Source: Escherichia coli
GTDB taxonomy: Bacteria; Pseudomonadota; Gammaproteobacteria; Enterobacterales; Enterobacteriaceae
NCBI RefSeq assembly: GCF_041248615.1
Contig: NZ_CP158426.1
DNA length: 64,000 nucleotides
Direction: 5' to 3' (one strand)
Each line of letters begins with the position of its first letter. Position 1 is the stretch's first letter. Shown here in pieces: positions 43,701-46,700 of this stretch. The position numbers are program-made.

Positions 43701-46700
43701 AACCGTATTCTTGGTGAAGAGCGCGTTGTTGTTTATGACATGCCTGGTACGACGCGTGACAGTATCTACATTCCAATGGAACGCGATGGACGTGAGTATG
43801 TGCTCATTGACACCGCTGGCGTACGTAAACGCGGCAAAATCACCGATGCTGTAGAGAAATTCTCGGTAATCAAAACGTTGCAGGCCATTGAAGATGCCAA
43901 CGTGGTGATGTTAGTGATTGATGCGCGCGAAGGTATTTCCGATCAGGATCTCTCCCTGCTGGGCTTTATTCTCAATAGTGGGCGCTCACTTGTCATTGTG
44001 GTGAATAAGTGGGATGGCCTGAGCCAGGAAGTGAAAGAGCAGGTGAAAGAAACGCTGGACTTCCGTCTGGGCTTTATCGATTTTGCTCGTGTGCATTTTA
44101 TCTCAGCCTTGCACGGCAGTGGTGTTGGTAATCTGTTTGAATCAGTACGTGAAGCGTATGACAGCTCCACCCGTCGTGTGGGGACCTCTATGCTGACGCG
44201 CATCATGACGATGGCTGTTGAAGATCACCAACCGCCGTTGGTACGCGGTCGTCGTGTGAAGCTGAAATATGCCCACGCTGGTGGTTATAACCCGCCGATT
44301 GTGGTGATTCACGGTAACCAGGTGAAAGACCTGCCTGATTCCTACAAGCGTTACTTGATGAACTACTTCCGCAAATCGCTGGACGTAATGGGATCGCCGA
44401 TTCGTATTCAGTTCAAAGAAGGGGAAAACCCGTATGCGAACAAGCGTAATACCCTGACGCCAACCCAGATGCGCAAGCGTAAGCGCCTGATGAAGCATAT
44501 CAAGAAAAGTAAGTAATCACTTATCTGGTTTCCCTTTCCACACGGAGAGGGAAACCGAATAACACGCGAGGAGTATTTATGGCACTCAACTGTCCAACCT
44601 GCAAAACCCCTCTCGAACGCAATGGCGAGACTGCCCACTGTGCAACTTGCGACAAAGACTTTACCGTCCAGGCACTTTGCCCTGAGTGTCATCAGCCGTT
44701 ACAAGTGTTAAAAGCTTGTGGTGCTGTGGACTATTTTTGCCAACATGGGCACGGTTTAATATCTAAAAAACGCGTTGAATTTGTTATTGCTTAATATCAT
44801 GTGAATATATTGTTTTATCATTTATATTTAATATGTGAATGGTAAAACAATCTGTTATTAGTGGAATAACTAATGTAATTGAGTGAAATCACTAATTTAA
44901 ATAATTAAGAATATATTTATTCTTTATGACATGCCTTTCTGAATAATCAGGGATACAATATTAAAGCTTATTTTTGACTGTATCATTGTCACAGGGAAAG
45001 TGCATGCTGCGATGGAAACGCTGTATTATTCTAACATTTATCTCTGGTGCTGCTTTCGCGGCACCAGAGATAAATGTTAAGCAAAACGAATCGTTACCTG
45101 ATTTAGGTAGCCAGGCAGCACAGCGGGATGAACAAACCAACAAGGGTAAATCGCTGAAAGAGCGCGGAGCCGATTACGTCATCAACTCCGCCACGCAAGG
45201 GTTTGAAAACTTGACCCCTGAGGCGCTGGAATCTCAGGCCAGAAGCTATCTGCAAAGTCAAATCATCTCAACCGCACAATCTTATATTGAAGACACTCTC
45301 TCTCCCTACGGTAAGGTCCGTTCGAACCTCTCCATTGGCCAGGGCGGCGATCTGGATGGCAGTTCCATCGATTATTTTGTTCCCTGGTACGATAATCAAA
45401 CCACTGTTTATTTCAGTCAATTTTCTGCGCAACGAAAAGAAGATCGTACAATCGGGAATATTGGTCTTGGGGTAAGACATAATTTTAATGAATGGTTATT
45501 GGGTGGAAATGTATTTTATGATTATGATTTTACCCGAGGACATCGCCGTTTAGGTTTAGGCGGCGAAGCGTGGACTGATTATTTAAAATTCTCTGGCAAC
45601 TATTATCATCCGCTTTCTGACTGGAAAGACTCTGAAGATTTCGGCTTTTATGAAGAACGCCCTGCGCGCGGCTGGGATATTCGTGCCGAAGCCTGGTTAC
45701 CTTCTTATCCGCAACTGGGGGGCAAAGTTGTCTTCGAGCAATATTACGGCGATGAAGTCGCCCTTTTTGGTACGGATAATTTGGAGAAAGATCCCTACGC
45801 GGTAACACTTGGACTGAATTATCAACCGGTGCCATTACTAACCGTTGGGGCGGACTATAAAGCGGGGACCGGAGATAACAGCGATGTCAGCATTAATGCC
45901 ACTCTTAATTATCAGTTCGGCGTTCCGCTAAAAGATCAATTGGATAGCGATAAAGTGAAAGCGGCTCACTCGTTGATGGGCAGTCGTCATGATTTTGTTG
46001 AGCGTAATAACTTTATTGTTCTGGAATACAAAGAAAAAGATCCGCTTGATGTCACCCTGTGGTTAAAAGCGGATGCCACCAACGAGCACCCTGAGTGCGT
46101 CATTAAGGACACTCCCGAAGCGGCCGTCGGGCTGGAAAAATGTAAATGGACCATTAACGCGCTTATCAACCACCACTACAAAATTGTCGCTGCGTCATGG
46201 CAGGCGAAAAACAATGCTGCCCGCACGCTGGTTATGCTGCGTATTTTCATGAAAGGAGATCACTCAATAACTTCCATCGAGATCGGGTAATAACATTTGA
46301 ACAGATCGCTGAATAACATCGATGGAGATCACTTTTGACTCATTTTGTTATTCAGTGATCTCCATCAATGTTATTGGAACTTCACAGGTGTGTTGATCTG
46401 TATCTTTTGCCATTCCGGTAAAGGATACCTATGCCAACAGTTCCAATTTCTATGAGAAAACTTAAAGAAATTCTTAGGCTTAAATACGGTGTTGGACTCA
46501 GCCATCGACAAATTGGTCGTAGTCTTGCAATCTCCCCTTCCGTTGTATCCAGATATGCTAATCGGGCGGCTCAACTTGGCATAAAGCAGTGGCCCTTACC
46601 TACAGGATGGGATGATACAAAACTAAAACATGCGTTCCTTCAGACCCAGGTTAAGATGAAGAAGCACTCTCTGCCTGACTGGGCTACAGTACACCGGGAA

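What the first reader, a model, noticed from the sequence alone, without database searches (positions are those of the whole stretch)
45032..45079. Perfect 19-bp inverted repeat inside the sinH signal-peptide coding sequence
TAACATTTATCTCTGGTGC (45032-45050) and GCACCAGAGATAAATGTTA (45061-45079) are exact reverse complements separated by 10 nt. They start 28 nt after the ATG. The symmetry shows up in the ORF track as mirror-image peptides (TFISGAAFAAPEINV on +, TFISGAAKAAPEINV on -). A 19-bp perfect hairpin spanning the signal-peptide cleavage region is unexpected for purely coding constraints. It could stall or attenuate transcription or translation, bind a dimeric regulator, or be a recombination or hairpin-cleavage target.
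Basis: seen in the sequence. Interest (0 to 1): 0.5.

Follow-up and report, generated by a model that had tools for sequence, protein, structure and literature searches.

The report
Conserved hairpin in sinH signal-peptide codons
A 48-base palindrome at the start of the adhesin gene sinH is real and has been kept across the genus Escherichia by matching changes on both arms, so it is probably an undescribed RNA stem-loop that tunes production of the adhesin, though its function is untested.

Summary
Window 45032-45050 and 45061-45079 are exact reverse complements. Pairing extends to 22 bp around a 4-nt loop (RNA about -36 kcal/mol), starting at +29 of sinH.

It is not chance and not a repeat element; there is one copy per genome. 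Of 1,735 complete E. coli genomes carrying it, 1,020 have the identical 48-mer. The sampled variants mostly differ by G.U-compatible changes.

Across Escherichia species the arms change in mirror image:
- A-U to G-C.
- U-A to A-U through U.U and G.U intermediates.
- A symmetric one-codon deletion in both arms, even at the cost of amino-acid changes.

On an ungapped, protein-anchored alignment, 82% of cells pair, against 34-46% for slid controls. Synonymous divergence in the hairpin codons is 0.06-0.08, against a gene median of 0.42, while amino-acid divergence is not reduced. So selection acts on the nucleic acid.

A 12-bp core exists in Pseudocitrobacter and Citrobacter-like alleles. The common Salmonella allele lacks a stable hairpin.

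Best reading: a conserved mRNA stem-loop restraining SinH synthesis, through RNase III cleavage or a block to the first ribosomes, with template switching helping keep the arms matched. The function is inferred, not shown. In this window sinH is also split by an IS21-family insertion.

The parts
45032..45053 (+). Left (5') arm of the stem-loop. It covers codons 10-17 of sinH (L T F I S G A A), the hydrophobic core and c-region of the signal peptide. Positions 45032-45050 form the perfect 19-nt arm.
   Evidence: sequence and inverted repeat. (minimum-free-energy fold).
45054..45057 (+). Apical loop TTTC (third base of codon A17 plus codon F18). The loop differs among alleles: TTTT, TTAT, GTGT, and AACTCCT in L058.
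45058..45079 (+). Right (3') arm, codons 19-26 (A A P E I N V K). It spans the predicted signal-peptidase site AFA|AP, which falls between 45060 and 45061. Positions 45061-45079 form the perfect 19-nt arm.
   Evidence: The cleavage site is inferred from the -3/-1 AXA rule and was not run through a predictor.
44993..45006 (+). Shine-Dalgarno-like AGGGA (44993-44997) and the ATG start codon (45004-45006) of sinH. This region is left unpaired in the centroid fold, so the hairpin does not sequester the ribosome-binding site.
   Evidence: the ACAGGGA motif is conserved upstream of the start in orthologues.
45004..46237 (+). The 5' part of sinH (signal peptide and inverse-autotransporter beta-domain), up to the IS insertion point.
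   Evidence: (PF11924 IAT_beta on homologues).
46238..48818 (+). IS21-family insertion that splits sinH in this strain. It is context, not part of the hairpin. It carries an IstA-like ORF (46431-47972) and an IstB ORF (47984-48733), with a 7-bp target duplication.
   Evidence: 042 locus positions 9332-9338 are matched on both sides of the insertion. (Pfam rve, Mu-transpos_C_2 and IstB_IS21).
48819..49769 (+). The 3' part of sinH after the insertion.

Best explanation
The palindrome is a conserved stem-loop in the early coding region of the sinH mRNA, at nt +29 to +76. It has 22 bp, a 4-nt loop and a stability of about -36 kcal/mol.

Shown:
- The two arms are kept complementary across the genus Escherichia, and a 12-bp core is kept in some neighbouring genera.
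- Selection acts on the nucleotides rather than on the peptide.
- In this register, third codon positions face third codon positions. Much of the compensation is therefore synonymous, but amino-acid replacements and a mirrored codon deletion were also accepted to keep the pairing.

Inferred:
- The structure matters as RNA on the sense strand.
- It acts as a negative post-transcriptional element. The ribosome-binding site stays open, but the first ribosome must melt a very stable helix when its P site is only about 5-6 codons in, which delays clearance of the start site.
- Whenever the message is not being translated, the uninterrupted helix of about two turns is long enough to be an RNase III substrate, which would inactivate the mRNA.
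- Replication template switching between the arms probably helps keep them matched and may account for the lengthening of a short ancestral repeat (Ser-Gly / Pro-Glu codons) into a long, near-perfect palindrome.
For: Structure and chance.

Not explained by the peptide: the first 90 nt of the CDS are more stable than 98-100 of 100 synonymous recodings. This holds in all 8 Escherichia alleles tested (the window allele and seven others, spanning E. coli, E. albertii, E. ruysiae, E. whittamii and Escherichia sp. E1V33), in Pseudocitrobacter vendiensis, in P. faecalis and in Enterobacteriaceae G50 (z = -2.3 to -4.9). Five downstream control windows per gene centre on z = 0.

Population: 1,735 of 5,426 complete E. 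coli genomes carry the element, at one locus each. Of these, 1,020 are identical over the 48-mer, 471 differ by 1-2 bases and 195 are the SMS-3-5 type (G.U). The two single-mismatch alleles that I read were the A-to-G change giving U.G.

Compensation:
- E. albertii has AT to GC on both arms (F to L and N to S).
- The pair at GGNGC/GCNCC occurs as U-A, U.G, G.U, A-U, U.U and C.A.
- An E. ruysiae-like allele repairs a U.U mismatch by an N-to-K change that gives U.G.
- Allele L058 lost GGT (Gly) from the left arm and CCA (Pro) from the right arm. It also changed ACA/TGT to CTA/TAG and still forms about 20 bp.

Formal count on an ungapped, protein-anchored alignment of 24 distinct sequences:
- 82.2% of cells pair, against 34-46% for slid partners.
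- The covariation score is 0.272, against 0.05-0.12 for slid partners.
- 10 of 22 pairs show changes on both sides.
- 0 of 500 shuffles reach the observed value.

RNAalifold independently returns the 12-bp core.

Selection on nucleotides: synonymous third-position divergence from five other Escherichia species is 0.06-0.08 in codons 10-25. The median over 390 sliding windows is 0.42, and the gene-wide minimum lies inside the hairpin. Amino-acid divergence there is 0.19-0.24, which is not reduced.

Strand: G.U cells outnumber A.C cells 32 to 3 in Escherichia and 18 to 6 in the outgroup core.

Precedents: inverted repeats are enriched 25-60 bp downstream of E. coli start codons (PMC6060812). RNase III cuts intramolecular stems modelled as duplexes of about 24 positions (PMC6212723).
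Against: - No expression, cleavage or probing data exist for sinH mRNA, so the direction of the effect (negative) and the RNase III step are pure inference.
- The ancestral core of 11-12 bp is too short for RNase III. If that is the function, it would be specific to Escherichia.
- The common Salmonella enterica allele, several Citrobacter, Superficieibacter, Atlantibacter and Leminorella show no excess structure. The element is therefore dispensable for SinH as such.
- The G.U excess is partly expected from protein constraint. Many left-arm T's are second positions of hydrophobic codons, so the T-to-C changes that would give A.C are non-synonymous.
- The sequences are phylogenetically related, so cell counts overstate the number of independent events.
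- The mirrored multi-nucleotide changes and the symmetric deletion are what template switching produces without any selection for function.
Confidence: 0.45

Rival explanations
1. The palindrome perpetuates itself and has no function of its own. A short inverted repeat arose from the conserved Ser-Gly / Pro-Glu codons. Replication template switching (quasipalindrome correction) then lengthened it and keeps homogenising it. The signal peptide and the mature N-terminus tolerate the resulting amino-acid changes, and the mRNA hairpin is incidental.
For: - Mirrored two-base changes occur on both arms: E. albertii and L058.
- Both arms of L058 carry a symmetric 3-nt deletion.
- The arms grew from about 12 bp to 22-24 bp in one genus.
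- A published model and data say that perfect inverted repeats in Proteobacteria are conserved through template switching (PMC5941160). Quasipalindrome hotspots in E. coli are documented (PMC7202029), as is homogenisation of inverted-repeat arms in yeast coding sequences (PMC8604942).
- The element is absent or weak in Salmonella and several other genera.
Against: - Unbiased correction erases a new mutation or copies it with equal probability, so it should not lower the substitution rate. Yet synonymous divergence in the hairpin is about five-fold below the gene median and is the gene-wide minimum.
- G.U states are common and reach high frequency (27% plus 11% of E. coli genomes), while non-pairing states are singletons or minor alleles.
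- A U.U mismatch was repaired in different lineages to A-U and to G.U. Templating does not produce G.U.
- No spacer inversion, another hallmark of template switching, was seen among the alleles.
Confidence: 0.2
2. The element acts as DNA. It could be a symmetric binding site for a regulator or nucleoid protein inside the early coding region. For example, H-NS could nucleate at the two inverted GATAAAT motifs. Alternatively it could be a cruciform that responds to supercoiling and so influences sinH transcription.
For: - The E. coli orthologue IatB/SinH is poorly expressed and is activated by LeuO, an H-NS antagonist (PMC6714894).
- Each arm contains GATAAAT, the core of the H-NS high-affinity motif TCGATAAATT (the motif appears in PMC2094087, found; I made the match by eye).
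- The arm sequence itself, and not only the pairing, is nearly invariant within Escherichia.
- A second long perfect palindrome lies upstream of the next adhesin gene.
Against: - Alleles within one species carry different mirrored arm sequences (window type, SMS-3-5 type, L058). Other genera keep the pairing with unrelated sequences such as TCAGGCTCGG/CCGAGCCTGA. This fits base pairing better than recognition by one protein.
- G.T states are frequent, and these would be mismatches in a DNA hairpin.
- The G+C-rich centre (GCTGCTTTCGCGGC) is unfavourable for cruciform extrusion (general knowledge).
- 19-22-nt half-sites are much longer than usual operators.
Confidence: 0.12
3. The element is a translation-activating stem-loop of the fepA/bamA kind. 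A hairpin just downstream of the start codon would act as a 'starting block' that positions the 30S subunit and raises initiation.
For: [quoted passage not shown]
- The ribosome-binding site is unpaired.
- The mechanism in fepA and bamA does not depend on sequence (PMC7534054; PMC12692685).
Against: - The fepA element is a short stem-loop around +20, and OmrA/B pair at +14 to +22. The sinH stem begins at +29, and its conserved core begins at about +37. That is 10-20 nt beyond the edge of an initiating 30S subunit.
- The sinH stem is also far longer and more stable than needed for this role.
Confidence: 0.08
4. The element is a transcription attenuator. The hairpin would cause premature termination or a long pause inside the 5' coding region unless a closely coupled ribosome prevents it from folding.
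For: The Pseudocitrobacter vendiensis version is an 11-bp G+C-rich stem followed by GTTTTCTG, and it scores as terminator-like.
Against: - The window has no T-run after the stem and no terminator-like site on either strand.
- The P. faecalis locus (L008) and the P0075 locus (L093) do not score at the hairpin.
- In Escherichia the bases after the core pair back with the upstream arm instead of forming a U-tract.
Confidence: 0.05

Closest known systems
RNase III-controlled mRNAs of E. coli with cleavage in intramolecular stems, some inside coding regions (betT, PMC4067347; transcriptome-wide map, PMC6212723)
   Same: Both involve a long, almost uninterrupted intramolecular helix of about two turns within an mRNA. 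Cleavage there would inactivate the message and could be modulated by conditions that change RNase III activity.
   Different: No cleavage has been shown for sinH. The helix sits on the signal-peptide codons only 28 nt from the start. The shorter ancestral core (11-12 bp) would not qualify as a substrate.
[quoted passage not shown] 2017, as described in PMC11979758, PMC7534054 and PMC12692685)
   Same: Both are stem-loops in the first few dozen nucleotides of the coding sequence of an outer-membrane protein gene. In both it is the structure that counts, not the sequence.
   Different: The TASL is short and sits around +14 to +22, directly against the initiating 30S subunit. The sinH stem starts at +29 (core at about +37) and has 22 bp at about -36 kcal/mol. 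The expected sign of the effect is opposite.
Perfect short inverted repeats conserved by template switching in Proteobacteria (Lavi et al. 2018, PMC5941160); quasipalindrome-associated mutation in E. coli (PMC7202029); inverted-repeat arm homogenisation in coding sequences (PMC8604942)
   Same: The arms evolve in concert, with mirrored multi-nucleotide changes and a mirrored indel. A short repeat was extended into a long perfect one, and protein sequence was changed as a by-product.
   Different: In sinH the synonymous substitution rate is strongly depressed and G.U states are favoured. That points to selection on a structure in addition to the mutational mechanism.
Genome-wide enrichment of cruciform-capable inverted repeats 25-60 bp downstream of E. 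coli start codons (Miura et al. 2018, PMC6060812)
   Same: The position class is the same: +29 to +76, centred at about +52.
   Different: That report is statistical, covers K-12 (which lacks sinH), and assigns no function. The sinH repeat is much longer than the 8-bp class analysed there, and here it is backed by comparative evidence.

Membership tests
RNase III intramolecular stem substrate | Near-continuous double-stranded stem of about 22-24 positions (11 on each side of the staggered cuts) | tested here: met
   The window has 22 consecutive pairs (21 Watson-Crick plus one U.G) with a 4-nt loop. Other Escherichia alleles have 20-24 pairs. The feature is not met by the 11-12-bp core in Pseudocitrobacter and Citrobacter-like alleles. 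The length criterion comes from PMC6212723.
RNase III intramolecular stem substrate | rnc-dependent double cleavage in vivo that leaves 2-nt 3' overhangs | not testable with these tools
   This needs 5'-end mapping in an rnc+ versus rnc- comparison in sinH-positive strains. The published K-12 maps cannot help because K-12 lacks sinH.
Translation-activating stem-loop (fepA/bamA type) | Short stem-loop abutting the initiating 30S subunit, around +14 to +22 of the coding sequence | tested here: not met
   The stem starts at +29 in the window (45032, with the ATG at 45004). The conserved core starts at about +37. The fepA position comes from PMC12692685.
Translation-activating stem-loop (fepA/bamA type) | Promotes 30S binding and expression | not testable with these tools
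   This requires toeprinting or reporter fusions.
Intrinsic (Rho-independent) terminator or attenuator | G+C-rich stem followed directly by a U-tract | tested here: not met
   No terminator-like site lies in window 44500-45300 on either strand. The stem is followed by AGCAAAACG. Only the P. vendiensis orthologue scores; L093 and L008 do not score at the hairpin.
Inverted repeat maintained by template switching (quasipalindrome correction) | Concerted, mirrored changes of the two arms, including multi-nucleotide changes and indels | tested here: met
   E. albertii has AT to GC on both arms. L058 has ACA/TGT to CTA/TAG and a symmetric 3-nt deletion.
Inverted repeat maintained by template switching (quasipalindrome correction) | Spacer inversion between alleles | tested here: not met
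   The loops seen are TTTC, TTTT, TTAT, GTGT and AACTCCT. None is the reverse complement of another. This hallmark is frequent but not obligatory.
Inverted repeat maintained by template switching (quasipalindrome correction) | No selective constraint required (substitution rate like neutral sites) | tested here: not met
   Synonymous divergence is 0.06-0.08 in the hairpin codons, against a median of 0.42 across sinH. This is the gene-wide minimum.
Repetitive extragenic palindrome, MITE or other dispersed palindromic element | Many copies per genome, intergenic | tested here: not met
   The 48-mer hits only annotated sinH in every listed row. There are at most two 'places' per genome, consistent with the two strands of the same palindrome. 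All hits are on chromosomes and none on plasmids.
Palindromic operator of a dimeric transcription factor | Half-site sequence conserved among taxa that share the regulator | tested here: inconclusive
   The arms are nearly invariant within Escherichia. However, alleles within E. coli differ by mirrored changes, and other genera keep the pairing with different sequences. No protein binding could be tested.
Any curated RNA family (Rfam 15) | Score at or above the family gathering threshold | tested here: not met
   Only sub-threshold matches to animal and plant microRNA precursor models were found (26 bits against thresholds of 70-95). These are generic long hairpins.

The most novel reading that the evidence does not exclude
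The hairpin is a dedicated regulatory RNA switch embedded in the signal-peptide codons of an H-NS/LeuO-controlled adhesin gene. A two-turn helix would make SinH synthesis depend on RNase III activity or on tight transcription-translation coupling. Its need to stay paired would have dictated the amino-acid sequence of the signal peptide's c-region and of the mature N-terminus, giving the 'mirror' peptides. Together with the second conserved perfect palindrome upstream of the neighbouring giant adhesin gene, this would define a hairpin-based post-transcriptional layer of control for this adhesin island.
Probability: 0.25. Interest if true: 0.65.

Novelty: new member of a known kind. Interest (0 to 1): 0.5.

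Why it matters
SinH (IatB) is an intimin-like adhesin of extraintestinal pathogenic E. coli. It has been tested as a vaccine antigen (PMC9937491) and is barely expressed in the laboratory (PMC6714894). A conserved structure in the first 80 nt of its message would be an unrecognised control point. It would explain part of that poor expression, and it matters for anyone building sinH fusions or expression constructs.

More generally, this is an unusually clean natural case of a nucleic-acid structure overriding protein-level constraint. Synonymous sites are five times more conserved than in the rest of the gene, while the encoded residues change in mirror-image pairs. It also gives a concrete, testable example for the unexplained enrichment of inverted repeats 25-60 bp downstream of E. 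coli start codons. Finally, it bears on the debate over whether such repeats persist by selection or by template switching.

Tried and rejected
- **Rfam scan.** Scanning the region at E <= 10 gave only sub-threshold microRNA-like hairpin matches. The element belongs to no known family.
- **Promoter and terminator scan.** Nothing was found in window 44500-45300, so I rejected the intrinsic-terminator reading for Escherichia. Only the P. vendiensis orthologue scores.
- **Dispersed repeat or mobile palindrome.** Rejected: there is one locus per genome.
- **In-frame insertion of a palindromic element into the signal peptide.** Rejected: orthologues without the long stem have signal peptides of the same or greater length.
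- **TASL membership.** Rejected on position.
- **Spacer inversion or phase-variation-like switching.** Not seen in 33 distinct alleles.
- **Cluster of changes confined to the palindrome in L058.** Not found. That allele is divergent throughout the 5' end, so it cannot be used as a single-event signature of template switching.
- **SD / anti-SD alternative pairing.** I considered pairing of the left arm (UCUCUG) with the Shine-Dalgarno region (CAGGGA). It is not conserved in E. albertii or the outgroups, so I dropped it.
- **Genome-collection scan.** It did not return Salmonella. I recovered those alleles through protein search and contig look-up.
- **Technical failures.** The Jagodnik 2017 paper is not held, so I took its content from papers that cite it.
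Full report
**1. The observation**

The window reads TAACATTTATCTCTGGTGC at 45032-45050 and GCACCAGAGATAAATGTTA at 45061-45079. These are exact reverse complements. Pairing continues inward through T.G, G-C and C-G, so the arms are 22 nt (45032-45053 and 45058-45079) around the loop TTTC.

The surrounding 401 nt are identical to E. coli 042, where the gene is annotated sinH with its ATG at the position matching window 45004. The stem therefore begins at +29. The + strand encodes TFISGAAFAAPEINV over the element.

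Stability:
- The 48-mer folds at -36.1 kcal/mol as RNA.
- The 56-nt element folds at -23 kcal/mol as DNA, z = -11.3.
- The antisense RNA folds at -34.6 kcal/mol.
- The 126-nt context has z = -6.1, with the Shine-Dalgarno and start region unpaired in the centroid.

A 19-nt perfect inverted repeat with a short spacer is expected about 5e-6 times in 64 kb. The whole window holds only two perfect inverted repeats of 17 nt or more.

**2. Context**

The window comes from a strain about 99% identical to 042 across this locus, but not from 042 itself. A 2,581-bp insertion at 46238-48818, flanked by a 7-bp duplication, splits sinH. It encodes IstA-like and IstB proteins of the IS21 family. Upstream lies the zinc-ribbon gene yfgJ. 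Downstream lie sinI and a very large adhesin gene. E. coli SinH is the protein called IatB. Its promoter is activated by LeuO, and it is poorly expressed in culture (PMC6714894).

**3. Not a coding by-product and not a repeat element**

I re-coded the first 90 nt of the CDS 100 times with synonymous codons drawn from each gene's own usage.
- The native sequence was more stable than 98-100 of the recodings in every Escherichia allele, in Pseudocitrobacter vendiensis, in P. faecalis and in Enterobacteriaceae G50 (z = -2.3 to -4.9).
- Five downstream control windows per gene scattered around z = 0.
- Citrobacter, Superficieibacter, Atlantibacter, Leminorella and P. cyperus were not significant.
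- The 48-mer occurs only in sinH, once per genome.
- Rfam has no matching family.

**4. Conservation and co-variation**

Among 5,426 complete E. coli genomes, 1,735 carry the element:
- 1,020 have the identical 48-mer.
- 471 differ at 1-2 positions.
- 195 are the SMS-3-5 type.
- 49 are the O145:H28 type.

The single-mismatch alleles that I read carry A to G in the right arm, which turns a U-A pair into U.G.

A metagenome scan anchored only on flanking sequence gave 15 variants. Genus-level loci and contig look-ups added more. The changes are mirrored:
- E. albertii changed AT to GC on both arms, at the cost of F to L and N to S.
- The pair within GGNGC/GCNCC occurs as U-A, U.G, G.U, A-U, U.U and C.A.
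- An E. ruysiae-like allele turns a U.U mismatch into U.G through an N-to-K replacement.
- Allele L058 lacks GGT (Gly) in the left arm and CCA (Pro) in the right arm. It also changed ACA/TGT to CTA/TAG (T to L, V to S) and still forms about 20 bp with one G.U.

I built an alignment anchored on the Ser-Gly codons, with 24 distinct sequences and no gaps. It was not fitted to any structure. On it:
- 82.2% of cells form standard pairs, against 34-46% when partners are slid by 1-3 columns.
- The covariation score is 0.272, against 0.05-0.12.
- 10 of 22 pairs show changes on both sides.
- No shuffle out of 500 reaches the observed values.
- RNAalifold on the same alignment predicts a 12-bp core on its own: TCNGG..CGG / CCG..CCNGA.

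In this register, third codon positions face third codon positions. That is where most covariation sits. For example, the Ser and Pro third positions occur as U-A, A-U, G-C and U.G.

**5. Selection on the nucleic acid**

I compared the window allele with five other Escherichia species. Synonymous third-position divergence is 0.06-0.08 in the 16 hairpin codons. The median over 390 sliding 16-codon windows of sinH is 0.42, and the gene-wide minimum lies inside the hairpin. Directly after the stem the value returns to 0.45-0.55. Amino-acid divergence in the hairpin codons (0.19-0.24) is not reduced.

Unbiased arm-to-arm correction erases or duplicates a new mutation with equal probability, so it should not lower the rate. 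This pattern therefore argues for purifying selection on pairing or sequence rather than on the peptide.

**6. Which strand, DNA or RNA**

G.U-compatible states on the sense strand outnumber A.C states, which would be G.U on the antisense strand:
- 32 to 3 cells in Escherichia. Fourteen of the 32 come from one invariant U.G pair.
- 18 to 6 cells in the outgroup core.

G.U alleles reach 27% and 11% of E. coli genomes. Non-pairing variants are singletons or the 3% O145:H28 type. This favours the sense-strand RNA.

There are caveats. Several left-arm T's are second positions of hydrophobic codons, so the T-to-C changes that would yield A.C are selected against for protein reasons. The sequences are also related by descent.

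**7. How it is maintained**

The mirrored multi-base changes and the symmetric codon deletion are what replication template switching between quasipalindrome arms produces (PMC7202029, PMC5941160, PMC8604942). I take this as the likely mutational route for part of the compensation, and for the growth of a short ancestral repeat into a 22-24-bp near-perfect palindrome in Escherichia. The ancestral repeat is largely forced by the conserved S-G and P-E/D codons. Template switching alone does not explain the depressed synonymous rate or the G.U repairs.

**8. What it most likely does (inference)**

The ribosome-binding site is free and there is no terminator signature. The stem lies 10-20 nt too far downstream to be a fepA/bamA-type activating stem-loop.

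A helix of about -36 kcal/mol starting at +29 has to be opened when the first ribosome's P site is at about codon 5-6. At that point the ribosome still covers the start region, so the helix should slow clearance and re-initiation. An untranslated copy presents about two turns of near-perfect dsRNA, the size class that E. coli RNase III cuts in intramolecular stems (PMC6212723; betT example, PMC4067347).

I therefore favour a negative post-transcriptional element, with confidence about 0.45 for the whole statement. My confidence is about 0.8 that this is a selected structure, about 0.6 that it acts as mRNA, and about 0.3 for the specific RNase III or early-elongation mechanism.

Rivals:
- A functionless self-correcting palindrome (0.2).
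- A DNA-level site, for example H-NS nucleation at the inverted GATAAAT motifs, or a cruciform (0.12).
- A translation-activating stem-loop (0.08).
- An attenuator (0.05).

**9. Limits**

- The common Salmonella enterica allele has only a weak 6-bp possibility and no hairpin in the minimum-free-energy fold. Several other genera show no excess structure. The long stem is therefore an Escherichia feature and is not needed for SinH biogenesis.
- Cell counts are inflated by shared ancestry.
- No experimental data bear on function.
- The literature held here contains no mention of this hairpin.

**10. Comparison and verdict**

The element belongs to the known kind 'conserved stem-loops in early coding sequence'. 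It falls in the position class where inverted repeats are statistically enriched in E. coli (PMC6060812). It matches none of the defined families tested: Rfam, TASL, intrinsic terminator or dispersed palindromes. It meets the length criterion for an RNase III substrate and the concerted-evolution criterion for template-switch maintenance.

It is a new, well-supported member of a known kind. It also shows an unusually clear case of nucleic-acid pairing shaping a signal-peptide sequence.

Noticed in passing
window 46238-48818: An IS21-family insertion sequence splits sinH in this strain. It carries an IstA-like ORF at 46431-47972 (Pfam rve and Mu-transpos_C_2) and an IstB ORF at 47984-48733, with a 7-bp target duplication. 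E. coli 042 and most other genomes have sinH intact.
   Followed up: partly
window 50843-50877 (and 50811-50840): A perfect 17-nt palindrome, CATATTTTGCTTAATCC c GGATTAAGCAAAATATG, lies in the 120-bp gap between sinI and the giant adhesin gene. It follows a terminator-like hairpin, AGCATTCCCgcaaGGGAATGCT-GTTT. The 15-nt arms are unchanged even in the L058 allele, which is 82% identical over this region; only the centre differs (CCCGG versus TCAGG). It looks like a sequence-specific site or a 5'-UTR hairpin for the next gene.
   Followed up: partly
window 46312-46375: A 22-nt inverted repeat (95% complementary, 20-nt spacer) lies just inside the left end of the IS21-family element. It probably belongs to the element's terminal repeat structure.
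   Followed up: no
window 27012-27049: A 19-nt inverted repeat with no spacer, GCAATAAAAAACCGCCAAA/TTCGGCGGTTTTTTATTGC, has A- and T-runs on either side. It looks like a bidirectional intrinsic terminator.
   Followed up: no
window 45004-45030 (sinH codons 1-9): Synonymous divergence is also low (about 0.13) in the first nine codons, before the hairpin. ATGCTGCGATGG is almost invariant in Escherichia. This could be an initiation-region constraint or part of a larger fold.
   Followed up: no
window 45040-45046 and 45065-45071: Each arm carries GATAAAT (ATTTATC on the + strand of the left arm). This is the core of the H-NS high-affinity motif TCGATAAATT. I matched it by eye only.
   Followed up: no
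L007 1501-1536 (Pseudocitrobacter vendiensis sinH): The orthologous hairpin has a completely different sequence, TCAGGCTCGG/CCGAGCCTGA (an 11-pair stem in the scan), and is followed by GTTTTCTG. It is the only orthologue that scores as terminator-like.
   Followed up: partly
L049 (human gut metagenome contig, coverage 1.9x) and L035 (E. coli O145:H28): L049 has a 1-nt deletion in the left arm (ACATTATC) that frameshifts sinH. Given the low coverage, this may be a sequencing error. In O145:H28 strain 16003, sinH is annotated as a frameshifted pseudogene, but the hairpin is retained with a 2-nt internal mismatch.
   Followed up: no
window 44804-44856: An imperfect 24-nt inverted repeat (79% complementary, 5-nt spacer) lies directly after the yfgJ stop codon, in the A+T-rich yfgJ-sinH intergenic region. 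It did not score as a terminator.
   Followed up: no
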